The notes under the pieces are model-generated. The model ran no database searches. It saw only the letters and a list, made by a program, of their open reading frames with translations, and had not been told where the DNA came from. Both the position numbers and the translations under genes were made by a program. 64,000 nt of DNA, taken from positions 33,358-97,357 of the forward strand of contig JAHFFY010000001.1 of assembly GCA_023247705.1 (NCBI GenBank), in the 5' to 3' direction. This DNA comes from Candidatus Omnitrophota bacterium (lineage in GTDB: Bacteria; Omnitrophota; Gorgyraeia; Zapsychrales; JAHFFX01). Of the stretch, positions 23,731 to 57,330 are shown piece after piece. The stretch's first letter is position 1, and each line of letters begins with the position of its first letter.

Positions 23731-23750
23731 CCCGGCTGGGCAAAGAACCG

Positions 23751-25676: not shown

Positions 25677-25690
25677 AATTGGAGAAATAA

Positions 25691-26926: not shown

Positions 26927-26929
26927 GGT

Positions 26930-32284: not shown

Positions 32285-33532
32285 ATGGAGAACCAGAAAA
32301 GAAAATTACGGATTGCCATGGTGGTATACGCATTCCCAGCGTTATCTCAGACATTTATTGTTAATCAAATCACCGGACTGATTGATCTGGGCCATGAAAT
32401 CGATATATTTTCGTTTATTAAATTGAAGGAGAATCAAATTGCCAACGATATTCATAAATACAATCTGTTAAGTAAGGTCACTTATCTTAAAGGCATTTCG
32501 AAAGATTTTAGTAAAACAATCCTAAGATTTCTTAAGTTATTTTTTCGTTTCATATTTATTTATCCCAAAGAGATTCTAAAAGTACTTAATATTTTTCAAT
32601 ATAAAAGCATGCGGATCGTATTAAACAATTTTTTTATACTTAGCTATTTTCTAGGGAAGAATTATGATGTGTTCCATTGCCATTTTGGTCTTGTTGGAAA
32701 AGAGCTTGTTTTCGTAAAAGAGATCATGCCTCAGGTAAAAATTATTACTCAGTTTCACGGTTATGATATCAGTAAATATATTAAAGAAAATGGCGAACAG
32801 ACATATGATGAACTTTTTAGAAAAGGAGATCATTTTTTGCCGGTCAGTGAACATTTCAAGAACCGGTTGCTCCAGTTGGGATGCCCTCAAGAGAAGATTA
32901 CGATTCATTATTGTGGTGTCTATCTTGACCGCTTTCCATGGTGTGAACATAAATTCGATTTTGGCCAGCGAATACAAATACTTTCGCTGGGGCGTTTGGC
33001 TGAAAAAAAAGGGGTAGAGTATATGATCAAAGCGGTCGCGCATTTAAGATTTAAATTTCCGCAGCTGCAATGTGAAATTGTGGGAGATGGAGAAGAGAGA
33101 ACTAAACTCGAAGAACTCGTTGAGCAAAATGATTTAGAACGGATGATTCAATTTAAAGGCAGTGTGACAACCGGAGAAGTTCAGCAATATTTCCAGAGAG
33201 CCGATATTTTCATTGCCCCCAGCGTGACTTCTTCCAGTGGGGATGAAGAGGGTTTAGTTGTTACGATCAAAGAGGCCATGGCCACCGGGACCCCCGTTAT
33301 CACAACAAACCATGCAGAAATTCCGGAGATGGTTAGAGATGGAATATCAGGTTTTTTGGTCAGCGAGCGTAATGCTCAGGAAATTGCGGACCGGATCACA
33401 TCTTTAGTCCTTAATCCTGACCTTTGTCGTACGTTTGCTTCCGGGGCCCGGAAAGTTGTTGAACAAAAATTCGATCAACTAAAATTAAATGAACAATTAG
33501 AAGAAATATATTTTAATGTCTCCAGCAGATAA
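32285..33532 (+). CDS. Family 4 glycosyltransferase
   Basis: GT-B fold; EEGLVVTIKEAMATGTPVI (EX7E). Confidence 0.8.
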   Translation: MENQKRKLRIAMVVYAFPALSQTFIVNQITGLIDLGHEIDIFSFIKLKENQIANDIHKYNLLSKVTYLKGISKDFSKTILRFLKLFFRFIFIYPKEILKVLNIFQYKSMRIVLNNFFILSYFLGKNYDVFHCHFGLVGKELVFVKEIMPQVKIITQFHGYDISKYIKENGEQTYDELFRKGDHFLPVSEHFKNRLLQLGCPQEKITIHYCGVYLDRFPWCEHKFDFGQRIQILSLGRLAEKKGVEYMIKAVAHLRFKFPQLQCEIVGDGEERTKLEELVEQNDLERMIQFKGSVTTGEVQQYFQRADIFIAPSVTSSSGDEEGLVVTIKEAMATGTPVITTNHAEIPEMVRDGISGFLVSERNAQEIADRITSLVLNPDLCRTFASGARKVVEQKFDQLKLNEQLEEIYFNVSSR

Positions 33533-34454
33533 GAAAATAATAAGTATCATTATTGCGACTTTTCAACGTCCTGATCTTTTGAAAGATGCATTGAACAGTA
33601 TCTTGGGCTGTGAGTTGAATGACTCTTTTGATTATGAAGTCATTGTTGCTGATAATGACTCGCGTGATCACACTCAACAAGTGGTTGAGAACCTGATGCC
33701 TGATTTTCAGGGACGGTTAAAATATGTTTTGGAAGCAAAAAAAGGAAAAAGTTTTGCTATCAATACGGGTATTCTGGAATCTAAAGGCTCTTATATTGCG
33801 ATTACAGACGATGATTGCTTGATTGATAAGAATTGGATCTCTACGATTCATAGTACATTCGCTGTGTGCGATTTGGATATTTTATCCGGAAAAGTTATTC
33901 CATTGTTTGACCAAGAAAAACCTGATTGGATTGACTTTAATGTAAATTTTTTCCAAGGGCCCATGGTGTATTTTAACATGGGCGACAGTTATCTTGACAA
34001 TGCGAAACGGCCAATGTTTGCGGCGGGGGCCAACCTGATCTTGAAACGGTCGTCCATCGAGAGATTTGGACTGTTCCAAAAAGAAGCGCGCTCGCAGGAT
34101 ACCGAGATTTGTCATCGTTGGCAAAATCAAGGGGCTAAAATGGGCTATGATCCCAATCTGGTTGTCTATCATAAAACCCCTTTGTCCCGTTTGAATAAAA
34201 ATTATTTCCGTCAATGGCAGTTTACTCTTGGGAAGAATGCCGTTGAGATTTTTTTTTATGAGCGGTATTATTTCCAGGAGTCCAAACGAAATTGTTTCAA
34301 AATCCCGTTGTGGTTATATCGGAGGATTCTTTCCAGCATTGGTCGATATCTAAAGCAGATGTTCATTGGTAAAGCCACTTTTGCTGATGAATTATCGGTA
34401 TGGTTTCATTCGGGAGAGCTTTGCGGATTATGGAGTCAATATCATGCAGTATAG
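33516..34454 (+). CDS. Family 2 glycosyltransferase
   Basis: ISIIIATFQRPDLL, DNDS, TDDD motifs. Confidence 0.8.
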   Translation: MSPADKKIISIIIATFQRPDLLKDALNSILGCELNDSFDYEVIVADNDSRDHTQQVVENLMPDFQGRLKYVLEAKKGKSFAINTGILESKGSYIAITDDDCLIDKNWISTIHSTFAVCDLDILSGKVIPLFDQEKPDWIDFNVNFFQGPMVYFNMGDSYLDNAKRPMFAAGANLILKRSSIERFGLFQKEARSQDTEICHRWQNQGAKMGYDPNLVVYHKTPLSRLNKNYFRQWQFTLGKNAVEIFFYERYYFQESKRNCFKIPLWLYRRILSSIGRYLKQMFIGKATFADELSVWFHSGELCGLWSQYHAV

Positions 34455-35322
34455 CGTCATCATTTGTACTTACAATCGCGCTAACGACTTGGCGAAAGTA
34501 TTAGATCAGTTATGCAAACAATCGAAGGAAGTTGATGTTAAGCTAGAGTTTTTAGTGATTGATAACAATTCAACGGATCAGACACAAGAAATTGTGATTG
34601 AATTTGCAGAACAATATCATCACGTTCGATATTTGTTTGAAGACCGGCAGGGGAAGCCTTTTGCCTTAAATACGGCAATTCAGCAGGCAAAAGGGGATTG
34701 GTTATTCTTTACCGATGACGATGTCGTGTTTGATGATCATTGGCTCAAAGCAATGATTAACGCGGTGAACATATATTCGTTTAAATGTTTTTTTGGAAAG
34801 ATTATTCCTTTATGGCCCATGGAAAAACCGGATTGGTATGACCCCCGGATGGGCAGTGTGATTGTCAACGCTGATCACGGGAATAGCTTCAAAGATAAAA
34901 TGAATTATATGGTTGGTGCCAATATGGGCATCCATAAAGATATTTTTAAACAATACGGTGGTTTTAACGAAAAGATTAAGCGTTTTGAGGATTCCGAGTT
35001 GAGTCTCAGACTCCGGGAGAAAGTCAATATCGCATATGTTCCTGATGCGGTTGTTTACCATCCGGTTACTCCCTCACGAGTCAACAAACTATATTTTAAA
35101 AAATGGTATTTTGAAATGGGAAGGATTATTGATTTACGCCTCTTTGCTCAACAGCATAAGAAAATCTTGGGCATTCCCAGGTGGGTTTACCGCGCATTCT
35201 TGAAGCAATTGTTTTTATCTCTAAAATCAATCGATCCCAAGATCAGGTTTTATCATCAATTGCAAGTGTGGAGATACTTAGGATCATTCCAAGAGAAATG
35301 GTTTAATGCAAACGTAAAATGA
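34444..35322 (+). CDS. Family 2 glycosyltransferase
   Basis: YSVIICTYNRANDL, DNNS, TDDD. The ATG at 34444 is preferred over the track's 34366 start, which overlaps the previous gene by 89 nt. Confidence 0.75.
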   Translation: MQYSVIICTYNRANDLAKVLDQLCKQSKEVDVKLEFLVIDNNSTDQTQEIVIEFAEQYHHVRYLFEDRQGKPFALNTAIQQAKGDWLFFTDDDVVFDDHWLKAMINAVNIYSFKCFFGKIIPLWPMEKPDWYDPRMGSVIVNADHGNSFKDKMNYMVGANMGIHKDIFKQYGGFNEKIKRFEDSELSLRLREKVNIAYVPDAVVYHPVTPSRVNKLYFKKWYFEMGRIIDLRLFAQQHKKILGIPRWVYRAFLKQLFLSLKSIDPKIRFYHQLQVWRYLGSFQEKWFNANVK

Positions 35323-37393: not shown

Positions 37394-38566
37394 ATGAAAA
37401 AAATTCTGCTTCTATCAACGAATGCCGATGACGCACGTATTCTTCTTTGGTGTATGAGAGAAGCAAATTATGACTGTGTTGTGGCTGGTAATTTATCTCA
37501 GAATCGCGAATTGGAACATTTTCCTTTATGTCATAAACTTTATGCGATCCCAGAACAGTGGAGTATTGAGAAGAGGTCTCCGGAAATAATCCCCATTCTA
37601 GGGTCGATTATGGCGCATGAAAAAACCAGTATTTTATTGCCTACGGGATTTGAAAGTATAAAATTTTTAAGTCAGCATTACGAGAATGTCAAAAAATTTG
37701 GTCCGGTTATTCCTCTCCCAACGCTTGCGATGATCGATACCTTAAGCAATAAATTCAGTTTTGCGAAATTTTGTAAAGAGAATGATATCCCTCATCCGGA
37801 TATTTATCTTTTGGAAGATCTCGCGGTGGTTAGAGATAAAAAATTGCCTATTCGGTTTCCGTTATTAACCAAACCCTTGTCGATGTCAGCAGGGAAAGGG
37901 ATTTATGTGTTTCATAATGGAGATGAACTTTATAAATATCTGCAAGAAGGTCGCAGTGACCTATCCAATGCGCTGCCGTTGTTATTGCAAGAGTTCATTC
38001 CTGGACAAGATATTGATTTTAATGGTTTCGCACAAGATGGCCGTTTATGCGCCTGGACGATCCAAAAGGCGATTGAAATTCCTAGGGGCGACAAAGAACC
38101 TCTGCGCTGGATCCAATTTTTGCCTAATGACGAGGTCAAGAACATCGGAGAAAGGATCATCGAAAAGAGTGGATACTCCGGCCCAATCCATATTGATATG
38201 CGGGTGGATGAACGCAACGGCCAGGTAAAGTCGATCGAGATTAATCCGCGTTTTTGGGCGAGCACGTTTTATTCGATTTGCGACGGCGTCAATTTCCCGG
38301 CGATCGCAGTCCAATGCACCTGGGATCGTCAATACACCGCGACACCGAACAATTCCCATCGCATCTGGGGAACGCCGCATCGTATTCCACTTTTATTCTT
38401 ACAATATAAAGATTTAATCTTTCTTAAGTACGGTCTGCAGCATACTTGGTTGCAGGTGAAATTTGAGATTTTGAATCGTTATTTTAATTTTATCCAAAAT
38501 TATAATCAAAAGAATAAGAACGGTCATAAGAGTAATATTGCGGCTTTAGCCAATACAATTAAATGA
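37394..38566 (+). CDS. ATP-grasp domain protein (carboxylate-amine ligase), paralogue of 22525..23730
   Basis: IEINPRFWAS; ATP-grasp central domain with Gly-rich loop. Confidence 0.6.
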   Translation: MKKILLLSTNADDARILLWCMREANYDCVVAGNLSQNRELEHFPLCHKLYAIPEQWSIEKRSPEIIPILGSIMAHEKTSILLPTGFESIKFLSQHYENVKKFGPVIPLPTLAMIDTLSNKFSFAKFCKENDIPHPDIYLLEDLAVVRDKKLPIRFPLLTKPLSMSAGKGIYVFHNGDELYKYLQEGRSDLSNALPLLLQEFIPGQDIDFNGFAQDGRLCAWTIQKAIEIPRGDKEPLRWIQFLPNDEVKNIGERIIEKSGYSGPIHIDMRVDERNGQVKSIEINPRFWASTFYSICDGVNFPAIAVQCTWDRQYTATPNNSHRIWGTPHRIPLLFLQYKDLIFLKYGLQHTWLQVKFEILNRYFNFIQNYNQKNKNGHKSNIAALANTIK

Positions 38567-38703: not shown

Positions 38704-40044
38704 ATGATCGGAACACTAAAAATTATAACGCCAATAATATTTTATTTCATTGGCATCATGTTCATTTTTGTCTCTTTTTCCGGAAAAGTGCGGTGGACGA
38801 TCTTGTTTATTACCTTTTTGTTGCCTTTACAAAATATTATCGATAAGTTGCAGCAATTTCCTTTTGGTAAAGATTATATTGATATCTTGCTCATTGCGAT
38901 GACATTTGGATGGGTCGTTGACGCTGCTCAATACAAGCGGAAAACGTTTGAGAAATCACCGATCAATACTATTGCGATTGTACTCATGTGCTATATCTAT
39001 TTGTCATTATGGAATGGGTATCTTTATTTGCACTATTTTGCCCCATTTGATCTATCGGATCCTCGGTTGAAATCCTGCAAAAATTTTCTTATTTTACCGT
39101 TTTTATATTTTTTGACATTTAATAATATCCATGACAAAAAATGGGTTTGGCGAACGTTTGCCATGATGTGTTTATCGATGGTATTTATGAATTACTATCT
39201 TCTGCGTCAGATTGAGATGTTTTCCACCATCACCTCCCGGGATAAAATACATGGCACATTCGTTGATCTTGGCCCCAATGAAATCGCGGCATTTTACAAT
39301 CAATACTCTATGATCTTGTTGAGCATCATCTTTTTTATGAAGAACAATTTAAAAAAAATTTTATTGTTTATACTTTTTTGTGTAAATATTTTTTGCGTCG
39401 CCTTTCTTTTTTCTCGCGGGGCTTATTTAGGACTTGTGGCAGGATTGTTTTTCCTCTTTGCCATCAAACGAAAAGTTCTTCTTATCCCGCTTATTTTAGC
39501 GCTCTTGGCCTGGCAAACTGTTTTGCCGGCTAACGTAAAAGCCCGAATTGAAATGACCACCAATGCGCAAGGGGAATTGGACCCTTCGGCGCAAGGTCGT
39601 ATCATCATCTGGGAGCAAAGTATCTCGTTATTCAAAAGTCAGCCTATTTTTGGTGTCGGGTATGCCGTATTCCGCGAGTTAGGATACGGGTTGGGAGATA
39701 CACACAATATTTATCTGAAAATACTGACGGAACAGGGAGTCATTGGATTTATTATATTTCTGGTTCTTATCGGGACATTGTTTCGGGAGGGCTGGAAACT
39801 ATTCAAACGGGGGGACGATGATATGTCGAAGGCTTTGGGATTAGGTTTTGCCGCGTGTATCATTGTTCTGCTGGTTAATAATCTTTTTGGAAACCGCTGG
39901 ACTCATCCTGTGTTAAGTTCTTATTTTTGGATCATTGCTGGCTTAGTGGCTCGTTGCAATGTGTTAGCGGATCAATCGAATAAAGAACAACATCCTAATC
40001 GGAAAAAAAGAGAAAGAAGCCCGAGACTTTATGGAAGAATCTAG
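38704..40044 (+). CDS. O-antigen ligase/polymerase-like (Wzy_C) membrane protein, exosortase-locus associated
   Basis: About 10-12 TM helices; Wzy_C-like loop (FSRGAYLGLVAGLFF ... periplasmic loop with R/H residues). Confidence 0.65.
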   Translation: MIGTLKIITPIIFYFIGIMFIFVSFSGKVRWTILFITFLLPLQNIIDKLQQFPFGKDYIDILLIAMTFGWVVDAAQYKRKTFEKSPINTIAIVLMCYIYLSLWNGYLYLHYFAPFDLSDPRLKSCKNFLILPFLYFLTFNNIHDKKWVWRTFAMMCLSMVFMNYYLLRQIEMFSTITSRDKIHGTFVDLGPNEIAAFYNQYSMILLSIIFFMKNNLKKILLFILFCVNIFCVAFLFSRGAYLGLVAGLFFLFAIKRKVLLIPLILALLAWQTVLPANVKARIEMTTNAQGELDPSAQGRIIIWEQSISLFKSQPIFGVGYAVFRELGYGLGDTHNIYLKILTEQGVIGFIIFLVLIGTLFREGWKLFKRGDDDMSKALGLGFAACIIVLLVNNLFGNRWTHPVLSSYFWIIAGLVARCNVLADQSNKEQHPNRKKRERSPRLYGRI

Positions 40045-41176
40045 TCCAATTCCAAAATATCATGTTCTTTTTCTGACGGATTGCTGTCCGGATCTTGCGG
40101 GAGGAGCGGAAAAACAAATTTATGAACTCAGTAAAAGAATCAACCCGAAATTATTCCGGGTTACGGTGATCAGCCTGGATCCTCAAGGCGTTATTCCACA
40201 GCATTTATTTAATGCCGTTGGATGCCAGATCAAAAATTTTCCAGTTAAAAAAATGTACGGACTATCGGGTATTTTACAAGGGATTCATTTTATTAAATTC
40301 TTAAAAAAAGAAAAAGTGGATATTGTTCTGACTTATCATTTTTGCTCTGATATCTGGGGATGCATTTTTGCGCATTTGGCCGGAGTGAAGCTGGTCGTTT
40401 CGAATCGAAGAGATATGGGGTTTTGGCGCAAAAGTTGGCATACCCTTGCTTATCGGATGATTCAACATTGGATAAATAAAATTATCGTGGTCTCTCATTC
40501 GGTCAAAGAAATTGTCAAGAAAACAGAAAATGTTCCTGATGATAAAATACAGGTCATTTATAACGGAATCGATCTTTCTGAAAATGGTCCCCCAAGCACA
40601 CCCGTCGTGTCTTTAAAGAAACAACTTGGAATCAATATGGATGAACCTGTTGTGATGCATGTCGCAAATTTTAAAACTGTTAAAGGACATGATTATTTAT
40701 TAGAGGCTATGGTTTCGGTGGTGAAGTCTGTTCCGAAAGTCAAGTTAGTTCTCATTGGTGAAGATGAAATGAACGGACGACTTCAGAATCTGGCTGTGCA
40801 ATTAGGGATCGATAAGAATTTGCTTTTTCTCGGCAAACGGGATGATGTCCAGAATTTATTACCCATGGCAGACATTTGTGTTTTGCCGTCCTTAAGCGAA
40901 GGGATGTCGAACGCTATTCTTGAATACATGAAATGGGGGAAGCCGGTGATTGCAACGCAAGTTGGAGGAAACCCAGAACTCATTGAAGAAGGACGAAGCG
41001 GACTGCTCGTTCCACCGAGAAATTCTCAAAGTTTAGGAATGGCCATGATCCATCTGCTTCGAGATCCCTTTTTATGCCGACAAATGGGAAAAAACGCAAG
41101 AAAAAGAGTAGAAGAGATATTTACGATCGAAAAAATGGTTCAAAACTACGAACAGCTTTTTGAATCTCTCATCTAA
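40031..41176 (+). CDS. Family 4 glycosyltransferase
   Basis: GT-B; EGMSNAILEYMKWGKPVI (EX7E). Confidence 0.8.
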   Translation: MEESSPIPKYHVLFLTDCCPDLAGGAEKQIYELSKRINPKLFRVTVISLDPQGVIPQHLFNAVGCQIKNFPVKKMYGLSGILQGIHFIKFLKKEKVDIVLTYHFCSDIWGCIFAHLAGVKLVVSNRRDMGFWRKSWHTLAYRMIQHWINKIIVVSHSVKEIVKKTENVPDDKIQVIYNGIDLSENGPPSTPVVSLKKQLGINMDEPVVMHVANFKTVKGHDYLLEAMVSVVKSVPKVKLVLIGEDEMNGRLQNLAVQLGIDKNLLFLGKRDDVQNLLPMADICVLPSLSEGMSNAILEYMKWGKPVIATQVGGNPELIEEGRSGLLVPPRNSQSLGMAMIHLLRDPFLCRQMGKNARKRVEEIFTIEKMVQNYEQLFESLI

Positions 41177-41187
41177 TATGATTTCGC

Positions 41188-43089
41188 ATGGATACGATGC
41201 CAAAACGATTAACTGCAATTATTTCAATTTTCCTAATTTTATTAGCAGAAATATGTGCTGCGTCCTATATTGATACATTTCTATATTCATTTCATCGCAG
41301 GTTGTTAGTTTCGCGTTTTGTTTTTTTCTTAGTCGTGATGCTGAGTTTGTCTGTAGCGGTGCGATTAAAATCGAAGATAGCCGTTTTCGTGAGAGAATTC
41401 TTTTCAACGCCTGAACATCCTTTGAACTTGGCCGTTTTTCGGGTCGTTTTATTCGGGACGCTCTACCAAAGTTCGGATCTCGTCCAGTTGATTCAATTCA
41501 GCCAAATCCCTTCGGTCTTGATTTTCCCTCCGTTCGGTACAGAATGGATTCTTCGGTTTCTTCCGATCAATACCCATTTGGCGATTATCAGCTGGGTTAT
41601 TTTTCGTATTTTTTGCTTAAGCGCTATGATCGGTTATTGCACGCGCATTAGTATTTTAGGGACAATTCTTTCAGCGCTATATGTCTTGGGGATTCCCCAA
41701 TTTTTTGGCAAAGTTGATCATCCCTATCTTCACCTCATTTGGTTCGCCATGATTTTAAGCGTCAGTCCGTGTGCAGATCTTGGGTCAGTCGATGCATTAT
41801 TAACGTTAAAGAAGACGAAAGCTGTCAGCTTAAGAAAAATAACCCCATCTCTTGAATATGCATTACCATTACGCTTTGTCTGGTTACTCATAGGGATAAT
41901 TTATTTTTTTCCTGGCGTTTGGAAGTTATGGAAGGGTGGTTTTGATTGGGCACTGAGCGAGAATATACAATTCACGCTTTACCTTAAATGGTATGAATTT
42001 TCTGATTGGGTTTCTTCATTTCGGTTGGATCACCATCCCATTCTTTATCGCCTTTTTGGACTTGGAGCGATTGTTTTTGAACTCTCATTCATTTTCTTGA
42101 TTTTTCTACCGCGTATGCGTCTTTGGATTGCCGGTATAGGACTTTTATTCCATAATTTGACCAATCTTGTCTTTCGTATTTCCTTCTGGAATTTACAAAC
42201 CTGTTACGTTGCCTTTGTCAATTGGCATCAGGTTTTTCAAAAGATAGGGAAGAGGTTCTCTAGAGAAAAATTATATGTCATCTATGATGGACACTGTTCT
42301 TTTTGCATACAAACCGTCAACTGCTTGCAGATGTTTGATGTATTTGATCAATTGATATGTGTCAATGCGAATGATAGAAATCAATTAAATGTGCATCCCT
42401 TGTCTGGGCTTGATCGAGAGGCTATTTTAAAGGACATGCATGTTGTCGATGGAAAAAATGTTTATTTGGGTTTTTCCGCTTACCGTGCTTTAGCCAGACG
42501 GATTCCCATATGCTGGATATTCCTGCCGTTTTGCTATCTTGGTTTTGTGAATCGGATCGGCAATCAAGTTTACCGAACGATTGCGGATCATCGTCAATGT
42601 GCGATCAATGTGAACAAAACCTTTGAGGCCCAATCCCATCCCTTGCCTGGGTCTTCTTTAAATGGCATCGTTGTGGTCGGGATATTATCAGTATTGATGA
42701 ATATTTATGTTGGGACCAAACAGATCACCCAGGGCTGGCCGTTTGCCTGTTATCCTACCTTTTCTGATCTCGCCCATGGCACAACAACGACGATCGAGAT
42801 AGAAGCGGATAGTTTTAACGGCAAGAAAGTTGTCTTAACTCAACATCAAATGAGTAATAATTTTGAAGAACATCGTTTTCGCGGATTGTTAAGTAAAATC
42901 CTGGCAACCAAGGATAAAAAGCTACAAGAAATGCAACTAAACGCTTTATGGACACTTTACACGCGATATAATTCTCATTTAGGGAATATCAAGACTGTTT
43001 ACTTCTATCGTGTTGAACGGCTAACTTCTCCCGAAATGAAAAAACATAATTTGCTGAAACGAGAATTAATTCTGGTGAACGAATTTTAA
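41188..43089 (+). CDS. Multi-pass membrane protein: HTTM (gamma-carboxylase-like) domain fused to DCC-family thiol-disulfide oxidoreductase (DUF393) plus unknown C-terminal domain
   Basis: N-terminal ~330 aa polytopic with HTTM-like conserved stretch; middle LYVIYDGHCSFCIQTV (DGxCxxC of the DCC family); ~150-aa C-terminal domain of unknown function. Confidence 0.5.
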   Translation: MDTMPKRLTAIISIFLILLAEICAASYIDTFLYSFHRRLLVSRFVFFLVVMLSLSVAVRLKSKIAVFVREFFSTPEHPLNLAVFRVVLFGTLYQSSDLVQLIQFSQIPSVLIFPPFGTEWILRFLPINTHLAIISWVIFRIFCLSAMIGYCTRISILGTILSALYVLGIPQFFGKVDHPYLHLIWFAMILSVSPCADLGSVDALLTLKKTKAVSLRKITPSLEYALPLRFVWLLIGIIYFFPGVWKLWKGGFDWALSENIQFTLYLKWYEFSDWVSSFRLDHHPILYRLFGLGAIVFELSFIFLIFLPRMRLWIAGIGLLFHNLTNLVFRISFWNLQTCYVAFVNWHQVFQKIGKRFSREKLYVIYDGHCSFCIQTVNCLQMFDVFDQLICVNANDRNQLNVHPLSGLDREAILKDMHVVDGKNVYLGFSAYRALARRIPICWIFLPFCYLGFVNRIGNQVYRTIADHRQCAINVNKTFEAQSHPLPGSSLNGIVVVGILSVLMNIYVGTKQITQGWPFACYPTFSDLAHGTTTTIEIEADSFNGKKVVLTQHQMSNNFEEHRFRGLLSKILATKDKKLQEMQLNALWTLYTRYNSHLGNIKTVYFYRVERLTSPEMKKHNLLKRELILVNEF

Positions 43090-43091
43090 AT

Positions 43092-44234
43092 ATGTATATA
43101 AGCGCATTCCCTACGTTAACCATAAAAACATTGTTTAATCCATTCCCGCAGCGGTCCTGGGATAGACATTTCCCTTTTCAAAAACCTATTTTTTTCTATC
43201 GGGGAGCGAATGCGGTTTGGAGTGCGGTTAAAATTTTAAAGTTGCCGCCCCAATCCCATGTCTTGGTCCCAGCCTATCATTGCGGGGTCGAAATAAGCGC
43301 AGTCCTGAAAGCAGGCGGATTCATTCAGTTTTATAATATTAAAAACGATTTGCTGGTTGATTTGGAGGATATCCAGCGAAAAATAAATCATGAAACAAAG
43401 GCGATTCTTGTGATTCACTATTTCGGATTTCCGCAACCCATCCGGGAAATTAAACGACTCTGCGATTCAAAAAAAATATTTTTAATCGAAGATTGCGCCC
43501 ACGCTTTGTTCGGCCGCATTCCAGAAGGAATGTTAGGCAGTTTTGGAGATGCCAGTATTTTCAGTTTTCAGAAAAGTCTTCCGGTCGCGGATGGAGGGGC
43601 GATGATCCTCAAGAAGGAAAAACTTGAAGAATCCCGGATGTTAAGACAACCGCCGGGATTAACCGTCCTGAGAGGTCTGAGCGTTTTATGGATGGAACAT
43701 CTAAAAATGTTCCATCAAACTGTTTATCAATTTTTAGAAGGATTCATTTTTAACCCTCTTCGGTATTTATTGAAACAATTAAAGAAAATTCCGACCGAAT
43801 CATTTCAAATTAAGACAGCAAGCACGCATGAATTTGACGAAGGACTGACCGTTCTTGGCATGTCGAATGTTTCCTTGAAGATCAGTCAAAACATTGATCC
43901 TGATCTTGTGATTCAAAAGCGCAGAAAAAATTTTCAATTTCTAAAAGAAGGATTAAAGAATGTTAAAGGAATTGCATTCCTTTATCACGATTTAGCAGAA
44001 GGGATTTGTCCTTTGTTTTTTCCGATCTTAGCGGATGATCGGAATTTTTTGCAGGAGAGACTAAATCAGAAATCAATCGGAACATTTATCTTCGGCAAGA
44101 TACTTCATCCCCATCTGCCGCGGGAAAAATTTCCGTCGGCTGAATTTGTTTCGAACAAAAACCTTTGTTTCCCCATTCATCAGGATTTAGACGAAATTCA
44201 TCTAAAATATATGATCGAAGCGATCACAGAATGA
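43092..44234 (+). CDS. DegT/DnrJ/EryC1/StrS-family PLP-dependent sugar aminotransferase-like protein
   Basis: HYFGFPQPI...IEDCAHALFG...SFGDASIFSFQKSLP resembles the DegT family core, with a candidate PLP Lys in FSFQK. Confidence 0.5.
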   Translation: MYISAFPTLTIKTLFNPFPQRSWDRHFPFQKPIFFYRGANAVWSAVKILKLPPQSHVLVPAYHCGVEISAVLKAGGFIQFYNIKNDLLVDLEDIQRKINHETKAILVIHYFGFPQPIREIKRLCDSKKIFLIEDCAHALFGRIPEGMLGSFGDASIFSFQKSLPVADGGAMILKKEKLEESRMLRQPPGLTVLRGLSVLWMEHLKMFHQTVYQFLEGFIFNPLRYLLKQLKKIPTESFQIKTASTHEFDEGLTVLGMSNVSLKISQNIDPDLVIQKRRKNFQFLKEGLKNVKGIAFLYHDLAEGICPLFFPILADDRNFLQERLNQKSIGTFIFGKILHPHLPREKFPSAEFVSNKNLCFPIHQDLDEIHLKYMIEAITE

Positions 44235-52836: not shown

Positions 52837-53706
52837 ATGAATAAGCATAAAAACAATAAAAGTTTGATTTCTTTGCTGCGGTCATCAATTGAGATTCTAT
52901 TTCATAAACCATTGATTTTCTATCCCTATGTGATTTCAATTTTTATTCAACTTTTTGTGCTTGAAATTTTATACTTTGCACCGCGGTATCCTTTATCGCT
53001 ATTTTTTGCTCCCCTGATCAGACAATTTTGGGGGGAAATGTTTTTACATTTTCCGTTTAATCTCCTTTTATTGCCTGTTTTATTCCAATACGTAAAAACC
53101 CCGATTTATATTATCTCGAGCAGTTATCTCATTGGGATAGCAATCATTATCATCGCTGCCATTAACGAAGATCAAACGATTAGCTTTAAATCGGCCGCCA
53201 AAAAGGTATTGCCTCGCTATATCCATTTGATCTTCATCACTAGCATTTCTTATTCACTTTTTTATGGATTTTCGCAACTTTATGGATTGGTGATCAAAAG
53301 GGCCTTTATTATTCACTCTGAGACAGGAATATTTTATTTAATTAAGCGGATTGTGCTTGATGGGACTCCCTTTTTCTCCCTTTTAATAAGCGTTTTTGTT
53401 TCGACCCTCTTAGTTTTTATGATGCCGCTCCTCCTGCTCGAAAAAAAGAATTTATTCGCAGCGTTTTGGACTAATTTGAAGAAAGTTATTAAATCCTTCT
53501 GGTTTGTCTTGGGGATTGTTTTATTGCCGACCTTGTTATATCTGCCAGTCTTGTTATTGAGTAGTAATCTATCGAGTTTTGGAAATGGGGTTGCTCCTGA
53601 AATCCGAATGTCCCTCACAATAGCCAATATCCTTATTATAGTGATCATTGATGCCATCGTTTATACAGCGATAACATTATATTATTTATTTGATCAAGAA
53701 AATTAA
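52837..53706 (+). CDS. Polytopic membrane protein, hypothetical (possibly the detached sensor module of a PrsK-like kinase)
   Basis: About 7 predicted TM helices; no catalytic motifs; first gene of the operon containing the TPR protein, histidine kinase and sigma-54 regulator. Confidence 0.4.
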   Translation: MNKHKNNKSLISLLRSSIEILFHKPLIFYPYVISIFIQLFVLEILYFAPRYPLSLFFAPLIRQFWGEMFLHFPFNLLLLPVLFQYVKTPIYIISSSYLIGIAIIIIAAINEDQTISFKSAAKKVLPRYIHLIFITSISYSLFYGFSQLYGLVIKRAFIIHSETGIFYLIKRIVLDGTPFFSLLISVFVSTLLVFMMPLLLLEKKNLFAAFWTNLKKVIKSFWFVLGIVLLPTLLYLPVLLLSSNLSSFGNGVAPEIRMSLTIANILIIVIIDAIVYTAITLYYLFDQEN

Positions 53707-54614
53707 TGATTAAACGATCAATATTAATCTTTACCAGCATTCTCACCGTAGTCTATGGAATTCTTACTTTCCTTGACAGGGGGGGAGAGTATCAAGTCGA
53801 GCAGATGATTTGGAAGGCGAATGAAAAATTTCATGAGATCGCCAGAGATCCTGCCGCAGTTCCCGATCAATCTTTTGACCAACTTAGTCGACAGTATCAA
53901 AAAATTATTGAAAAATTCCCTAAATCGCCGTTAGCCAAAAAAGCGTATTTGGCGATTGGAAGGTTATATTTGGTGCAAAAAGATTTTCCGAAAACACGAC
54001 TAGTCATGGAGAAAGTCCTGCAAAGATATCCGGATGATCAGGATTTCTCAGCGGAATGTCTTACGGTCATAGGAAAATCATATGAGTTGGCAGGAGATCC
54101 GGTCAACGCGGTTAAGGTTTACACAGGCATAATGACCCAATATCCTGTAACGGATATCGGACTAAGTACGCCGTTATATATCGCAAATTATTACAAGAGC
54201 ATAAATCAAAACAATAAATTTATGTCAGCCTATAATAGTGCGATTTCACATTATAAAACTCTATCAGCGAAATATCCTAATTCCTCAACAGATCTGAAAA
54301 GTCTTCGTTTATTGGCGAATTGTTATATTGAAATGAAAATGTGGAATGAGGCCGTAGAGACTTTCGGACAGATATTAATATCATACCCTTCTAAGGCTGA
54401 TCTCACCCCGCAACGGGCAAATTTGATCCTCAAATCGATTAATACTATTTCAACCATCCAGCTTAAGAATTATGATATTCCGATACGCATATACCAAAAC
54501 TTCATTGATCAACATCCCCAACATGGTTTAAACAAGGTTCTCCATGAGATGATAAAATCCTTTAATCTCTTGCGAATTAAAGGCGTGGAGGTCGACACTA
54601 AGAATGCGGGATAA
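53706..54614 (+). CDS. TPR-repeat protein (PrsT-like)
   Basis: N-terminal TM/signal segment followed by several TPR-like 34-residue repeats (AYLAIGRLYLVQKDF..., AECLTVIGKSYELAGD...). Confidence 0.6.
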   Translation: MIKRSILIFTSILTVVYGILTFLDRGGEYQVEQMIWKANEKFHEIARDPAAVPDQSFDQLSRQYQKIIEKFPKSPLAKKAYLAIGRLYLVQKDFPKTRLVMEKVLQRYPDDQDFSAECLTVIGKSYELAGDPVNAVKVYTGIMTQYPVTDIGLSTPLYIANYYKSINQNNKFMSAYNSAISHYKTLSAKYPNSSTDLKSLRLLANCYIEMKMWNEAVETFGQILISYPSKADLTPQRANLILKSINTISTIQLKNYDIPIRIYQNFIDQHPQHGLNKVLHEMIKSFNLLRIKGVEVDTKNAG

Positions 54615-54623
54615 ATCCTACGC

Positions 54624-55934
54624 TTGATTATCATGACTAGAACACTAGAAGATTTTTCTCACAGCATTCTTTTTCAAAAAATTAGCGATATTTGTGCCAG
54701 CGTTAATATCGTTAAGAATGCGCGCGAACTTTTAGAATTGTCCTTGAAGCAAACGATGGATCTTTTTGGCGCAAAAAGAGGCTCGATTTTTATTTTTAAT
54801 GAGAATAAGAAAGAATTGATCCTGAAGATCGCGCATGGTATGGAAATAAATGAACAAAAGCAAATGGTCAAACGTTTGGGAGAAGGAGTGGTCGGTAAGG
54901 TTGCTCAAATCAAAAAGCCTATTGTTGTCTATGATATCGCGGATGACAGCCGATTTAACAATTTTAAACCTAGGCGAAGCTATCATACACCATCGTTCAT
55001 TTGTGGTCCGCTGTTAATTAAAGATAAACTCATAGGGGTCATTAACATTGCGGATAAAAATTCTGGACATCGTTTTAATAATGAAGAGCTTCAGCTCCTT
55101 GATTTTTTGTCAAGTCAGATTGCCCTGAACTATCGGCGCATACAACTGTATCAGAAATTTAAGAATTTAGTCAAAGAGTCCAAATACCTTAAAACTAAAT
55201 TAGGCAAAAGCAGCGCTGAAGCAGATGATCTAAAGAAGAAAATTGTAGTGCAAGAAAAATTTGCCTCAATCGGGAAACTTGCTGGAGGCATTGCGCATGA
55301 ATTTAATAACCCTTTAGATGGCGTTATCCGCTACACAAATCTTTCGTTAGAGCATATTAAAGACGATGATGTCGTTCGTGGATATTTATTAGAAATTAAG
55401 TATGGCCTTAATCGTATGGCAAATATCGTGAGAAGTCTTCTTGCCTGTTCACGAAATTCACGTCTTGCTATAGAGGAAATCGAAATTAATCGTTCGATTG
55501 AACAAGTGATTCTTAATCTTAAATCAGAAATTGCATATAAGAAGTTAATCATCGAGAAAGATTTTGATCATACGATCCCACCGATTATGGATTTAGGGAT
55601 GGAGTTAATCGTTTCCAACTTGTTTCGTAATGCCATTGACGCAGTTGATAAGGGGGGGAAAGTCACGGTTGTTACGCGAAATTTACACAATTATGTTTCG
55701 CTTAAAATCATTGATTCAGGATGCGGATTTTCAAGAGAATTAGCTCAAAAAATATTAGAGCCATTTTATACAACCAAAGACATTGATAAAGGATGTGGCT
55801 TAGGGTTAACGATTGTTAACGAAATCGTCAAGAGTTATGACGGAAAGATGACGATTGAAAGCGTCCCGAAAAAAGGTTCAACATTCACGATTTTTATTCC
55901 ATTAAAGATAAAAGATGAAAAAAGAATTATATAG
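54624..55934 (+). CDS. Sensor histidine kinase with N-terminal GAF domain (cytoplasmic; PrsK-like partner of the sigma-54 regulator)
   Basis: GAF domain (res ~30-180); H-box HEFNNPL; N/G1/G2 boxes (NAIDAV...; IDSGCGF; GCGLGL). Confidence 0.8.
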   Translation: MIIMTRTLEDFSHSILFQKISDICASVNIVKNARELLELSLKQTMDLFGAKRGSIFIFNENKKELILKIAHGMEINEQKQMVKRLGEGVVGKVAQIKKPIVVYDIADDSRFNNFKPRRSYHTPSFICGPLLIKDKLIGVINIADKNSGHRFNNEELQLLDFLSSQIALNYRRIQLYQKFKNLVKESKYLKTKLGKSSAEADDLKKKIVVQEKFASIGKLAGGIAHEFNNPLDGVIRYTNLSLEHIKDDDVVRGYLLEIKYGLNRMANIVRSLLACSRNSRLAIEEIEINRSIEQVILNLKSEIAYKKLIIEKDFDHTIPPIMDLGMELIVSNLFRNAIDAVDKGGKVTVVTRNLHNYVSLKIIDSGCGFSRELAQKILEPFYTTKDIDKGCGLGLTIVNEIVKSYDGKMTIESVPKKGSTFTIFIPLKIKDEKRII

Positions 55935-57330
55935 CGCCTATCACATCCTCATTGTAGATGATGAGCCGCTGATTCGACAGTCATTGTATGAAATCTTGAG
56001 AATTGAGGGCTACAAAGTACATATGGCTCAAAATGGAGAAGAAGCGATAGAATTACTCAAAAAATTTCATATTGATATTATTTTAACGGATATGAAGCTT
56101 CCTAAAATGAGCGGGCTTGATATTCTGACTTTTGTGAAAGAAAACAAGCCTGACATCGAAGTTATATTAATAACGGGTTTTGGAACAATCGAATCTGCTG
56201 TCGATGCCATGCGAAAAGGGGCTGCAGACTATATCACAAAACCAATCAATGATAGTGAAATTAAAATTATTCTTAACCAAATTGTAGAACGCAAACAAAT
56301 TCTTAAAGAAAATTTAAATTTAAAAAAGATTATCGCACAAACTTCCCGAAAATCTTTTTGCAGTATCATTGGATCCAGCCCGAAAATGCAGAAGGTCTAC
56401 CACGTGATTGACTGTGTTGCAAGCACGAATGCGACAGTCCTAATTACAGGGGAAAGTGGAACAGGAAAGGGTTTGGTGGCGAGAGCAATTCATGAAAGTG
56501 ATCAGAATCGATCCGAGAAACCTTTTGTAGAGGTCAGCTGTGGGGCTCTTTCGGAAACATTGCTTGAAAGTGAGTTGTTTGGACATGCCAAAGGATCATT
56601 TACTGGAGCAATTCGAGATAAAGAGGGAAGATTTGAAATCGCGCAGGGTGGAACGATTTTTCTCGATGAGATTGATGCATTTTCGCCTAATTTACAAGCG
56701 AAACTTTTACGCGTATTGCAAGATGGAGTATTTGAACGTGTTGGCGATAACCAAACGCGAAGAACTAATGCTCGAATTATCGTTGCCACCAATCAGGTTT
56801 TAACCGATTTAGTGGAGAAAGAACTTTTTAGAGAAGATCTTTATTACCGAATCAATGTGATTTCGATTCAATTGCCTCCGTTACGAGAACGAAGGGATGA
56901 TATTGATTCTTTAATAACGCATTTCATTCAGATGTATGCCCAAAAAAATAATAAAAAGATTACTAAATTATCAGAAGATGCCCATAAAGTTTTTATAACA
57001 TATGAATGGCCAGGAAATATTCGTGAACTGGAAAATGCCATCGAAGGCGCTGTCATTATGACGAAAGACCATGTCATTAATATTTCAGATGTCCCCAATC
57101 ATACCAAATTTTCAGCTTCAACGTCGTTAAGCACTAATAAATCATCAAGCTCTAAATCTCTTAAGAAAGTGTTAGAACAGCCAGAAAGAGAACTTATTCT
57201 TTCTGTTCTCGATGAATGCAATTGGAATCGCAACAAAGCCGCGGCGAATTTAGGAATAAACAGGACAACCTTATATAACAAAATGAAAAAATTTAAAATT
57301 ATCTTTGACCGGGTCAAAACGCATGAATAA
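55915..57330 (+). CDS. Sigma-54-dependent response regulator (NtrC family; PrsR-like)
   Basis: Receiver domain (phospho-acceptor Asp in ILTDMKLP); AAA+ sigma-54 activation domain with GESGTGKG, ESELFGH and GSFTGA (GAFTGA variant); C-terminal Fis-type HTH. Confidence 0.9.
   Translation: MKKELYSAYHILIVDDEPLIRQSLYEILRIEGYKVHMAQNGEEAIELLKKFHIDIILTDMKLPKMSGLDILTFVKENKPDIEVILITGFGTIESAVDAMRKGAADYITKPINDSEIKIILNQIVERKQILKENLNLKKIIAQTSRKSFCSIIGSSPKMQKVYHVIDCVASTNATVLITGESGTGKGLVARAIHESDQNRSEKPFVEVSCGALSETLLESELFGHAKGSFTGAIRDKEGRFEIAQGGTIFLDEIDAFSPNLQAKLLRVLQDGVFERVGDNQTRRTNARIIVATNQVLTDLVEKELFREDLYYRINVISIQLPPLRERRDDIDSLITHFIQMYAQKNNKKITKLSEDAHKVFITYEWPGNIRELENAIEGAVIMTKDHVINISDVPNHTKFSASTSLSTNKSSSSKSLKKVLEQPERELILSVLDECNWNRNKAAANLGINRTTLYNKMKKFKIIFDRVKTHE

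What the first reader, a model, noticed from the sequence alone, without database searches (positions are those of the whole stretch)
41188..43089. HTTM (gamma-carboxylase-like) + DCC thiol-disulfide oxidoreductase + unknown domain fusion embedded in the EPS locus
A 633-aa polytopic protein combines an N-terminal HTTM-like membrane domain with a DUF393/DCC domain (YDGHCSFC) and a ~150-aa C-terminal domain lacking recognisable motifs. It is translationally coupled between a GT4 gene and a DegT-like gene. HTTM is the fold of vitamin-K-dependent gamma-carboxylase, and a redox partner fused in cis recalls the carboxylase/VKOR pairing. Its presence inside a PEP-CTERM glycan locus is unexplained; it could modify the polymer or the PEP-CTERM proteins.
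Basis: partly seen in the sequence, partly recalled or inferred. Interest (0 to 1): 0.6.

Follow-up and report, generated by a model that had tools for sequence, protein, structure and literature searches.

The report
Vitamin-K-carboxylase-like enzyme in glycan locus
A 633-residue membrane protein inside a bacterial exopolysaccharide gene cluster has the fold and the catalytic residues of the human vitamin-K-dependent carboxylase plus an optional thioredoxin-like insert, and its unstudied family sits next to sugar-transferase genes in many phyla, which suggests (but does not prove) that vitamin-K-type chemistry is used on glycans.

Summary
ORF 41188-43089 (+) encodes a 633-aa polytopic protein with three parts: an HTTM/GGCX-like membrane domain, a DCC1-like domain (DGHCSFC), and a late TM helix followed by a ~110-aa domain with no Pfam or PDB match. 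The refutation test fails: Pfam HTTM misses the query but hits 13/36 family members. The family profile aligns to human GGCX (hhalign 88%, E 3e-6), and all 16 top PDB fold hits are GGCX.

New findings:
- The GGCX catalytic dyad K218/D263 is kept as invariant K246/E298.
- The conserved core is HTTM plus the C-terminal module. The DCC domain is an optional insert (absent in 25%, CxxC lost in 13% of 301 members). It is predicted to be cytoplasmic, across the membrane from the active site, so it is not a VKOR-like same-side partner.
- The family (about 1,150 representatives) recurs next to glycosyltransferase genes in non-cyanobacterial phyla (36/65 loci within 3 kb, plus one GT2 fusion). Exosortase is nearby in only 1/78 loci.

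Best reading: a quinol-dependent GGCX-type enzyme acting on a glycan-associated substrate. Cofactor, chemistry and substrate are inferred, not shown. I rate it a new variant of a known kind.

The parts
41188..43089 (+). Whole gene: 633-aa HTTM + DCC + TM + C-terminal-domain protein (the stop codon is included)
   Evidence: ORF list and translation. Full-length homologues to E 2.6e-155. AF2 model with pLDDT 88.1 and pTM 0.88.
41188..41364 (+). Two poorly conserved N-terminal TM helices (aa 6-26 and 35-59), absent in many homologues
   Evidence: Hydropathy and model helices. The alignment shows variable or missing N-termini.
41395..42225 (+). HTTM/GGCX-like membrane core (aa 70-346), equivalent to GGCX TM1-TM8
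   Evidence: hhalign to GGCX 54-334 gives probability 87.8% and E 3.3e-6. Foldseek top 16 hits are GGCX. Pfam HTTM hits 13/36 relatives.
41707..41733 (+). GKVDHPYLH loop: invariant K175 and H178, with H182 (32/36) aligned to GGCX H160
   Evidence: Invariant columns. Mapping to GGCX K154/W157/H160. The H160 role comes from PMC12589487 and PMC12647623.
41923..41925 (+). K246, the counterpart of the GGCX catalytic base K218 (motif YFFPGVWK against YFIAGVKK)
   Evidence: 36/36 in A1 and 268/269 in the wider set.
41947..41949 (+). W254, the counterpart of GGCX W223, which stacks on K218
   Evidence: 36/36 conserved. The W223 role comes from PMC12647623.
42079..42081 (+). E298, the counterpart of GGCX D263, the acid partner of K218
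   Evidence: 36/36 and 269/269. D263E keeps partial activity, and viral homologues also carry Glu here (PMC13486548).
42148..42153 (+). F321-H322, the counterparts of GGCX F286 (naphthoquinone pocket) and H287
   Evidence: F in 34/36 and H in 36/36. F286 lies in the vitamin K pocket.
42271..42600 (+). DCC1-like thioredoxin-type domain (aa 362-471) inserted between TM8 and TM9. It carries DGHCSFC (C370/C373, nt 42286-42306) and a third Cys, C471.
   Evidence: PF04134 at E 5.1e-14. C471 co-varies with the CxxC, 183/204 against 3/61. The domain is absent in 74/301 members.
42652..42720 (+). Late TM helix (aa 489-511), positional equivalent of GGCX TM9. It returns the chain to the outer side of the membrane.
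   Evidence: Hydropathy peak 1.97 and model helix H489-511. Present in both DCC-bearing and DCC-less members.
42736..42762 (+). WPFACYPTF motif (W517, P518, P523 and F525 invariant; Y522 in at least 90%) directly after the late TM helix
   Evidence: Invariant columns. The equivalence to the GGCX TMD-PBD linker is by position only; no significant alignment was found.
42763..43086 (+). Family-specific C-terminal alpha/beta domain (beta-beta-alpha-alpha-beta-beta), predicted to be extracytoplasmic
   Evidence: Model with pLDDT 85.6. No Pfam hit. No PDB fold match, best E 0.22. Present in 73 of 82 homologue ORFs.
40031..41176 (+). Upstream GT4 glycosyltransferase (context), 11 nt from the gene
   Evidence: Pfam Glycos_transf_1 at E 3.2e-42. 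Best NCBIfam hit is the XrtA-system stp2 family, below its cut-off.
43092..44234 (+). Downstream DegT/DnrJ/EryC1-type aminotransferase-like gene (context), 2 nt from the gene
   Evidence: PF01041 at E 2e-31. The same GT - X - DegT order occurs in Omnitrophota locus L020.

Best explanation
**What it is.** The gene encodes a polytopic inner-membrane enzyme of the HTTM/GGCX superfamily that works with the glycan-assembly machinery.

**Anatomy.**
- After the eighth helix, a DCC thioredoxin-like domain (aa 362-471; C370, C373, C471) is inserted into the cytoplasmic loop.
- A ninth helix (489-511) takes the chain back outside. There an invariant WPxxxYPxF stretch and a ~110-aa family-specific domain cap the site.

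**Proposed mechanism.**
1. The core binds a reduced naphthoquinone (menaquinol).
2. K246, assisted by E298, deprotonates it.
3. O2 converts it into a strong base and then the epoxide, as in GGCX.
4. That base removes a proton from a carbon acid on a glycan-associated substrate at the outer face of the membrane. The substrate could be the exopolysaccharide repeat unit, a substituent on it, or its lipid-linked form. The carbanion is most likely trapped with CO2, giving carboxylation.
5. The DCC domain is an accessory that passes cytoplasmic thiol reducing power to regenerate the quinol. Lineages without it rely on other reductases.

**Shown here:** fold, conserved residues, domain order and gene neighbourhoods.

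**Inferred:** topology, cofactor, chemistry, substrate and the role of the DCC domain.
For: **Fold and homology.**
- All 16 top PDB fold matches are human GGCX (E 1.2e-7 to 1.3e-2); the next hit has E 0.74.
- The family profile aligns to verified GGCX 54-334 with probability 87.8%, E 3.3e-6, over 234 columns.
- 13/36 relatives pass Pfam HTTM.

**Active site.**
- K218->K246, D263->E298, W223->W254 and H287->H322 are conserved 36/36. F286->F321 is 34/36 and H160->H182 is 32/36.
- K246 (268/269), E298 (269/269) and H322 (267/269) hold across 269 sequences, with or without DCC.
- The roles of these GGCX residues come from PMC12589487, PMC12647623 and PMC13486548.

**Architecture.**
- Among 82 homologue ORFs, 48 are HTTM+DCC+CTD and 25 are HTTM+CTD.
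- Among 301 full-length members, 189 have DCC with CxxC, 38 have DCC without CxxC, and 74 have no DCC.

**Topology.**
- The positive-inside pattern fits: K/R-rich loops at 60-77, 192-221 and after 346.
- GGCX has nine TM helices with a luminal C-terminal domain.
- An N-terminal GT2 fusion (P0092) and a C-terminal DUF6298 fusion (P0162) fit an N-in, C-out orientation.

**Glycan link.**
- GT4 and GT2 are the commonest neighbour families, in 29 and 24 of 78 loci.
- GT density is 2.34 per 10 kb within 1.5 kb, against 0.33-0.87 further out.
- 36/65 non-cyanobacterial loci have a GT within 3 kb, 25/40 when both flanks are complete. The link holds for both DCC-bearing (24/37) and DCC-less (12/28) members.
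- EPS loci in Pyrinomonadaceae, a soil metagenome and a 7-Mb contig carry the gene between Wzy, Wzx and GT genes.

**Precedent for non-protein substrates.** MloH carboxylates an aspartyl residue of a small molecule, and viral GGCX-like epoxidases are fused to a lipid desaturase.
Against: - No substrate, cofactor or activity has been measured for any family member.
- All 13 cyanobacterial loci lack GT neighbours, so the function cannot be tied strictly to one EPS pathway.
- Only about 55-63% of non-cyanobacterial loci have a GT within 3 kb, and GT genes are common.
- The GGCX N290 counterpart is Thr or Ile, and the CO2-stacking F299 counterpart is not conserved. Carboxylation specifically is therefore unproven.
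- The C-terminal domain shows no detectable similarity to the GGCX luminal domain (hhalign probability 0.1%; Foldseek best E 0.22).
- Some members occur in CPR Peribacteria, which are not known to make quinones (own knowledge).
- The DCC domain is predicted to lie across the membrane from the active site. No DCC protein is known to reduce quinones or epoxides.
- Topology was inferred; model coordinates could not be inspected.
Confidence: 0.45

Rival explanations
1. It is a protein gamma-carboxylase like GGCX. It carboxylates Glu (or Asp) residues of secreted proteins, here the PEP-CTERM proteins sorted by the neighbouring exosortase.
For: GGCX fold and catalytic dyad. The counterparts of the Glu-carboxylate ligands N159/H160 are His-His in most members. 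A PEP-CTERM protein and an exosortase lie 5-9 kb downstream.
Against: An exosortase lies within 10 kb in only 1 of 78 other loci. No small secreted-protein gene recurs next to the family; the recurrent neighbours are GTs. The C-terminal domain shows no similarity to the GGCX propeptide-binding domain.
Confidence: 0.12
2. It is an epoxidase-only or quinol-oxidising redox module with no carboxylation. The HTTM core oxidises quinol with O2 and the DCC thiols are coupled to it. The role could be membrane redox or thiol homeostasis, or driving another oxidative modification, as proposed for viral GGCX-like epoxidases.
For: The epoxidation dyad is invariant, while the CO2-site residue (the F299 counterpart) is not conserved. 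Viral truncated homologues are interpreted this way (PMC13486548). In Nostoc an NDH-2/SQR-like flavoprotein lies directly upstream. Cyanobacterial loci have no glycan genes.
Against: Unlike the viral enzymes, the family always keeps a post-TM9 invariant motif and an outer domain. This suggests a second, substrate-binding site. The DCC domain is missing in 25% of members. The GT adjacency would be left unexplained.
Confidence: 0.18
3. It is not a quinone enzyme. The HTTM scaffold, whose tunnel binds an isoprenyl tail in GGCX, is reused to bind undecaprenyl-linked glycan intermediates. It would act as a transferase, ligase or polymerase accessory in polysaccharide assembly.
For: GT adjacency and a GT2 fusion. 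Wzy and Wzx genes are neighbours in several loci. GGCX holds the isoprenyl tail in a narrow tunnel.
Against: Strict invariance of the K/E dyad, the stacking Trp and the pocket Phe/His is most simply explained by retained quinol chemistry. No GT-C or other glycan-enzyme fold appeared among the PDB matches.
Confidence: 0.12
4. The placement in the EPS locus is incidental. The family has a housekeeping membrane function, such as quinone repair or turnover, unrelated to glycans.
For: There are stand-alone contexts in Coleofasciculus, in Chloroflexia and in all Nostoc loci.
Against: GTs are 4- to 6-fold enriched in the first 1.5 kb across many phyla, 27/78 loci have a GT within 300 bp, and GT2 and glycan-related fusions exist.
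Confidence: 0.08

Closest known systems
[quoted passage not shown]
   Same: Same membrane fold: all top PDB hits, E 1e-7. The profile alignment has probability 88%. The catalytic Lys/acid dyad, the stacking Trp, the pocket Phe/His and the His at the H160 position are kept. The overall order is also the same: TM bundle, last TM, outer domain.
   Different: About 14% identity. The outer domain is unrelated in sequence and was not matched in fold. A DCC domain is inserted in the TM8-TM9 loop. The N290 and F299 counterparts are not conserved. The genomic partners are glycosyltransferases, not Gla-protein genes.
Bacterial HTTM-DCC fusion with a separate DUF5819 partner (Melghirimyces thermohalophilus; bioRxiv 10.64898/2026.08.19.745780)
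   Same: HTTM followed by a DCC1-like domain in one chain. The partner is a TM helix plus a small domain, predicted to sit where the GGCX luminal domain sits. That is the same logic as the late TM helix plus C-terminal domain here.
MloH, vitamin-K-dependent carboxylase of malonomycin biosynthesis (Streptomyces)
   Same: A bacterial GGCX-superfamily enzyme that acts on a non-protein substrate (an aspartyl residue of a PKS-NRPS intermediate), with the HTTM region fused to an outer domain.
   Different: It lies in a natural-product cluster, not a glycan cluster, and no DCC insert is reported. Its relatedness to this family was not tested here because no sequence was available.
Giant-virus GGCX-like epoxidases (VKED) with VKOR
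   Same: They retain K218 and carry Glu at the D263 position, exactly as here. They are proposed to work on a lipid, not a protein (PMC13486548).
   Different: The viral proteins lack everything after about residue 300 and are fused to a sterol desaturase. Here a ninth TM helix, an invariant motif and an outer domain are always present, and the redox partner is DCC, not VKOR.
DCC family thiol-disulfide oxidoreductases (Pfam PF04134; Arabidopsis DCC1, B. subtilis YuxK)
   Same: Clear Pfam match and a DxxCxxC motif. DCC1 is described as a functional thioredoxin acting on respiratory complex I (PMC6603150).
   Different: Here the domain is an insert inside a membrane enzyme. It is optional within the family, and some members have lost the cysteines.
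VKOR (vitamin K epoxide reductase) as the redox partner of GGCX
   Different: No sequence or fold relation. The VKOR cysteines lie on the same (luminal) side as the GGCX site (own knowledge). The DCC domain is predicted to be on the cytoplasmic side.
B. subtilis SdpA/SdpB (and YitP/YitO) toxin-maturation pair
   Same: From my own recollection of the TIGRFAM descriptions, SdpB is HTTM-like and SdpA is DCC-like, so this would be a known split HTTM + DCC pair. The pair is required to produce a secreted toxin (PMC6818787).
   Different: The query matches no NCBIfam model, including the SdpA/SdpB families, at E<=1. The substrate there is a secreted peptide. No such gene neighbours this family.

Membership tests
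HTTM / GGCX superfamily (Pfam PF05090) | Detectable homology to the HTTM domain | tested here: met
   The query alone gives no Pfam hit at E<=1. However, 13/36 full-length relatives hit PF05090, best E 3.5e-10. The family profile aligns to GGCX 54-334 with hhalign probability 87.8%, E 3.3e-6.
HTTM / GGCX superfamily (Pfam PF05090) | GGCX-type transmembrane fold | tested here: met
   The AF2 model (pLDDT 88) was compared with the PDB by Foldseek. Ranks 1-16 are all GGCX, E 1.2e-7 to 1.3e-2, probability 1.00. The next hit has E 0.74.
HTTM / GGCX superfamily (Pfam PF05090) | Catalytic base Lys (K218) with an acidic partner (D263) | tested here: met
   K246 and E298 are invariant in 36/36 members, and in 268/269 and 269/269 of the wider set.
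Vitamin-K-dependent protein carboxylase (GGCX orthologue) | Luminal propeptide-binding domain and the conserved 374-418 linker needed for Glu carboxylation | tested here: not met
   The C-terminal profile against GGCX 335-625 gives hhalign probability 0.1%. The C-terminal model has no GGCX hit by Foldseek. Only a positional analogue exists: a TM helix, the WPxxxYPxF motif and a domain.
Vitamin-K-dependent protein carboxylase (GGCX orthologue) | Quinol- and O2-dependent epoxidation coupled to CO2 fixation | not testable with these tools
   This needs biochemistry. The CO2-stacking F299 counterpart is not conserved.
DCC1-like thiol-disulfide oxidoreductase (PF04134) | Pfam match above the gathering score and a DxxCxxC motif | tested here: met
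   53.9 bits against a cut-off of 27.8. DGHCSFC lies at aa 367-373.
DCC1-like thiol-disulfide oxidoreductase (PF04134) | Thiol-disulfide oxidoreductase activity | not testable with these tools
   Only sequence evidence is available. 38/301 family members with a DCC domain lack the CxxC.
DUF5819 (partner of HTTM-DCC proteins) | Pfam DUF5819 match in the C-terminal module | tested here: not met
   No DUF5819 hit in any of 25 C-terminal sequences at E<=10. Hits from a profile search carry no Pfam annotation. A structural comparison could not be run.
SdpB / SdpA antimicrobial-peptide maturation families (NCBIfam) | Match to the NCBIfam models | tested here: not met
   No NCBIfam family at E<=1 for the whole protein.
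XrtA / PEP-CTERM system-associated gene | Consistent co-occurrence with exosortase in other genomes | tested here: not met
   An exosortase and EpsI lie within 10 kb in 1 of 78 other loci, although the window itself is an XrtA-type locus.
VKOR-like recycling partner | Redox cysteines on the same membrane face as the carboxylase active site | tested here: inconclusive
   The positive-inside rule and GGCX topology place the DCC domain in the cytoplasm and K246 near the outer face. Model coordinates could not be inspected and there is no experimental topology.

The most novel reading that the evidence does not exclude
Vitamin-K-type (menaquinol/O2-driven) carbanion chemistry is applied to a polysaccharide or its lipid-linked precursor at the outer face of the bacterial membrane. 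An example would be carboxylation of an acidic or amino-acid substituent to create a malonate- or Gla-like calcium-binding group on the exopolysaccharide. This would be the first glycan substrate for the GGCX superfamily. It would also make a widespread ~1,000-cluster family, currently annotated only as 'DCC thiol-disulfide oxidoreductase', into a new class of glycan-modifying enzyme.
Probability: 0.2. Interest if true: 0.85.

Novelty: new variant of a known kind. Interest (0 to 1): 0.6.

Why it matters
GGCX chemistry is known for animal Gla proteins and for one bacterial natural product. It uses oxygenation of vitamin K hydroquinone to make a base strong enough to carboxylate an unactivated carbon. 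Recent structure papers note that GGCX-like genes are widespread in bacteria, without saying what they do.

This family offers a concrete, testable case:
- It keeps the catalytic dyad.
- It has its own outer domain.
- It is embedded in or fused to glycan-assembly genes in Acidobacteriota, Planctomycetota, Bacteroidota, Chloroflexota and others.

If the substrate is a glycan, the result would add a new type of polysaccharide modification and a new use of menaquinone. It would also correct a widespread annotation that names the protein after its optional accessory domain. Finally, the optional cytoplasmic DCC insert gives a handle on how bacteria might recycle the quinone without VKOR.

Tried and rejected
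1. **Thiol relay from the DCC CxxC to membrane cysteines (C195, C521 in WPFACYPTF).** Rejected. C521 is Cys in 58% of members with DCC and CxxC, 55% of members with DCC lacking the CxxC, and 39% of DCC-less members. C195 is Cys in 79% against 69%. Only C471, inside the DCC domain, co-varies.
2. **C-terminal module as DUF5819.** No Pfam signal at E<=10. A profile search found only unannotated fragments.
3. **C-terminal module as the GGCX luminal domain.** hhalign probability 0.1%. Foldseek of the isolated domain gave best E 0.22, to unrelated proteins.
5. **Direct sequence search of the PDB.** Neither the protein nor the full family profile found GGCX. The relation is visible only with the N-terminal profile in hhalign and by fold.
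6. **Exosortase co-occurrence.** 1/78 loci, so the PEP-CTERM-specific idea was dropped.
7. **Stand-alone 'TM + CTD' genes.** P0131 looks like part of a gene broken by frameshifts inside an EPS locus. P0132 and P0133 were uninformative.
8. **Literature.** Only three papers in the library use the term 'HTTM domain', and none links it to polysaccharides. One broad search was uninformative.
9. **Source organism.** Not identified; the exact protein carries no name in the collection.
Full report
**1. The observation.**
The ORF at 41188-43089 (+) is real and encodes 633 aa. Pfam finds one domain on the query itself: DCC1-like (PF04134) at aa 364-470, E 5.1e-14. The motif YDGHCSFC lies at aa 366-373. 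NCBIfam has no model for the protein.

The gene lies 11 nt after a GT4 gene and 2 nt before a DegT-like gene, all on the same strand. The surrounding 15.6-57 kb is an XrtA/PEP-CTERM-type exopolysaccharide locus. It contains:
- export, chain-length, ATPase and tyrosine-kinase genes;
- many GT4 and GT2 genes, a Wzy-like gene and deacetylases;
- an exosortase (above the curated cut-off), EpsI, a priming glycosylphosphotransferase and a PEP-CTERM protein;
- a TPR / histidine kinase / sigma-54 regulator set.

Translational coupling is plausible from the spacing but was not shown.

**2. Is the N-terminal domain HTTM?**
The query alone gives no Pfam HTTM hit at E<=1. The protein or family profile does not find GGCX in a sequence search of the PDB. 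Three independent results nevertheless establish the relationship.
- The protein has many full-length homologues at ~40% identity, and 13 of 36 sampled ones pass Pfam HTTM, best E 3.5e-10.
- The profile of the N-terminal 300 residues aligns to human GGCX residues 54-334 with hhalign probability 87.8%, E 3.3e-6, over 234 columns. I had first verified that GGCX sequence as identical to the PDB chains.
- An AlphaFold2 model (pLDDT 88.1, pTM 0.88) finds GGCX, and only GGCX, in the PDB. Ranks 1-16 have E from 1.2e-7 to 1.3e-2 and the next hit has E 0.74.

**3. The active site is kept.**
I mapped the hhalign alignment onto the 36-sequence family alignment.

| GGCX residue | Role in GGCX | Counterpart here | Conservation |
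|---|---|---|---|
| K218 | Catalytic base | K246 | 36/36 |
| D263 | Acid partner of K218 | E298 | 36/36 |
| W223 | Stacks on K218 | W254 | 36/36 |
| H287 | - | H322 | 36/36 |
| F286 | Naphthoquinone pocket | F321 | 34/36 |
| H160 | Binds the substrate carboxylate; needed for carbanion formation | H182 | 32/36 |
| Y200, R204, Y211 | - | Y224, R229, Y239 | Invariant |

The residue roles come from the recent GGCX structure papers and the viral VKOR paper. The latter notes that D263E keeps 25% activity and that viral homologues also carry Glu. In a wider set of 269 family sequences, K246 is kept in 268, E298 in 269 and H322 in 267.

Two positions do not fit. The N290 counterpart is Thr or Ile, and the F299 (CO2-stacking) counterpart is variable. 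The quinol-activating half-site is therefore well supported, but the carboxylation half-site is not.

**4. Architecture and topology.**
Domain-specific HMMs were run on 82 homologue ORFs from other genomes. They show HTTM+DCC+CTD in 48 and HTTM+CTD without any DCC domain in 25; the rest are mostly truncated contigs. In 301 full-length family sequences:
- 189 have DCC with CxxC;
- 38 have a DCC domain without CxxC;
- 74 have no DCC, with a median of only 39 residues between the HTTM end and the C-terminal module.

The invariant unit is thus the HTTM core plus a late TM helix (489-511), an invariant WPxxxYPxF motif (517-525) and a ~110-aa alpha/beta domain. The DCC domain is an optional insert.

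GGCX has nine TM helices, a cytosolic N-terminus and a luminal C-terminal domain. The insert here lies between the counterparts of TM8 and TM9, which is a cytosolic loop. The positive-inside pattern agrees: K/R-rich segments occur at 60-77, 192-221 and 346-360. So do two natural fusions: an N-terminal GT2 domain in P0092 and a C-terminal DUF6298 domain in P0162.

I therefore place the DCC cysteines in the cytoplasm, and K246/E298 with the C-terminal domain at the outer face.

**5. The C-terminal domain.**
It models confidently on its own (pLDDT 85.6). It has no Pfam match at E<=10 in any of 25 members and no significant PDB fold match. It shows no profile similarity to GGCX 335-625.

A 2026 preprint predicts that HTTM-DCC fusions of Firmicutes bind a separate 'TM helix + DUF5819' protein that occupies the place of the GGCX luminal domain. 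It also notes that MloH has such a region fused. The module here has the same position and logic, but I could not show homology. The structure libraries that could test it were unavailable.

**6. Genomic context elsewhere.**
I analysed 78 non-redundant loci, mostly from one scan of species-representative genomes.
- The two commonest neighbour families are GT4 (29 loci) and GT2 (24 loci). WecG-type GTs, GH10 and other glycoside hydrolases also recur.
- GT genes are 2.34 per 10 kb in the first 1.5 kb beside the gene, against 0.33-0.87 per 10 kb at 1.5-9 kb.
- A GT lies within 300 bp in 27 loci and within 3 kb in 36.
- Excluding the 13 cyanobacterial loci, which have none, this is 36/65, or 25/40 when both flanks are at least 3 kb. 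It holds for DCC-bearing (24/37) and DCC-less (12/28) members.

Clear EPS or O-antigen-like loci carry the gene between Wzy, Wzx, GT, methyltransferase and deacetylase genes. These occur in Pyrinomonadaceae, a metagenome contig where it is fused to a GT2 and a 7-Mb contig.

An exosortase is nearby in only one other locus. In Nostoc the upstream neighbour is an NDH-2/SQR-like flavoprotein. That is a lead towards quinone reduction, but it comes from a single lineage.

The family has 1,157 cluster representatives at E<=1e-30 among 1.84 billion.

**7. Interpretation.**
The best-supported reading is a GGCX-type, quinol- and O2-dependent enzyme. Its outer-face site is completed by a family-specific domain, and it works on something made by the neighbouring glycosyltransferases. 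The DCC domain would be an optional cytoplasmic accessory, plausibly for regenerating the quinol.

- **Shown:** fold, catalytic residues, domain order, optionality of the DCC domain, and GT linkage.
- **Inferred:** topology, menaquinol as cofactor, epoxidation and base generation, carboxylation, the glycan substrate, and the role of the DCC domain.

Nearly all source lineages use menaquinone or phylloquinone (own knowledge), which fits. A few CPR genomes do not.

The rivals are a protein carboxylase for secreted or PEP-CTERM proteins, an epoxidase-only redox module, a non-redox polyprenyl-glycan handler, and incidental placement. Each is given above with evidence and confidence.

**8. Comparison and novelty.**
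The protein is a member of the HTTM/GGCX superfamily and of the DCC family. It is not a GGCX orthologue, because the outer domain and linker tests were not met. It did not match the DUF5819, SdpA/SdpB or exosortase-system families.

HTTM-DCC fusions and widespread bacterial GGCX-like genes have already been noted. I did not find three things described in the searchable literature:
- the fixed HTTM plus C-terminal-module core;
- the optional, cytoplasmic nature of the DCC insert;
- the cross-phylum linkage to glycosyltransferases.

I rate it a new variant of a known kind, with interest 0.6. The mechanism is plausible and testable, but entirely unproven.

Noticed in passing
window 8248-10359 (+), then 10403-12633: A single 703-aa ORF matches hydroxymethylbilane synthase (HemC), uroporphyrinogen-III C-methyltransferase and uroporphyrinogen-III synthase (HemD) in series. 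It is followed by hemB and hemL. This is an unusual three-part tetrapyrrole fusion.
   Followed up: no
window 24891-27619 (+): An ABC-2 permease, a Wzt-type ATPase with a Wzt_C domain and a TylF-type O-methyltransferase sit inside a locus that also has Wzy-like, chain-length and export genes. This suggests a second, ABC-transporter-dependent glycan with a methylated terminus.
   Followed up: no
window 22525-24851 and 37394-38566 (+): Two ATP-grasp genes and a FemAB-like Acetyltransf_6 gene lie in the EPS locus. This hints at amino-acid decoration of the sugar polymer. Such a substituent would be a conceivable carbon-acid substrate for the GGCX-like enzyme. ATP-grasp genes did not recur in other loci.
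   Followed up: partly
window 53706-58402 (+) and 13651-15042 (-): A TPR protein, a GAF histidine kinase, a sigma-54-dependent response regulator and a PocR/GAF protein lie directly right of the PEP-CTERM gene. rpoN lies just left of the locus. This looks like a PrsT/PrsK/PrsR-type regulatory set.
   Followed up: no
window 18806-19522, 52837-53706, 61011-61541; 33516-34454 and 34366-35322: Three ORFs have no family hit. Two further ORFs in the locus, of 312 and 318 aa, overlap by 89 nt and were never annotated here.
   Followed up: no
L010 8477-9817 (and five other Nostoc loci): A 446-aa pyridine-nucleotide-disulfide oxidoreductase (NDH-2/SQR-like, below the curated cut-offs) lies a median of 66 bp upstream of the cyanobacterial homologues. 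It is a possible quinone reductase partner, but the evidence comes from one lineage only.
   Followed up: partly
L062, L063, L069 (Candidatus Peribacteria): Family members without a DCC domain occur in CPR bacteria. These lineages are not known to synthesise quinones (own knowledge), which is awkward for a strict menaquinol dependence.
   Followed up: no
P0162 (1046 aa) and P0092 / L005 10001-12721: These are natural fusions of the family: a C-terminal DUF6298 domain in P0162 and an N-terminal GT2 domain in P0092. P0163, P0245 and P0224 carry extra regions with no Pfam match.
   Followed up: partly
window 42598-42600 (C471): A third cysteine at the end of the DCC domain co-varies with the CxxC pair: 183/204 when the CxxC is present against 3/61 when it is absent. 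This suggests a three-cysteine redox unit.
   Followed up: partly
L087 3870-5801: On a 7-Mb contig the homologue appears split into 280-aa and 266-aa ORFs inside a Wzz/GT2/GT4/Wzy/Wzx locus. The cause is probably frameshifts in the assembly or a pseudogene.
   Followed up: no
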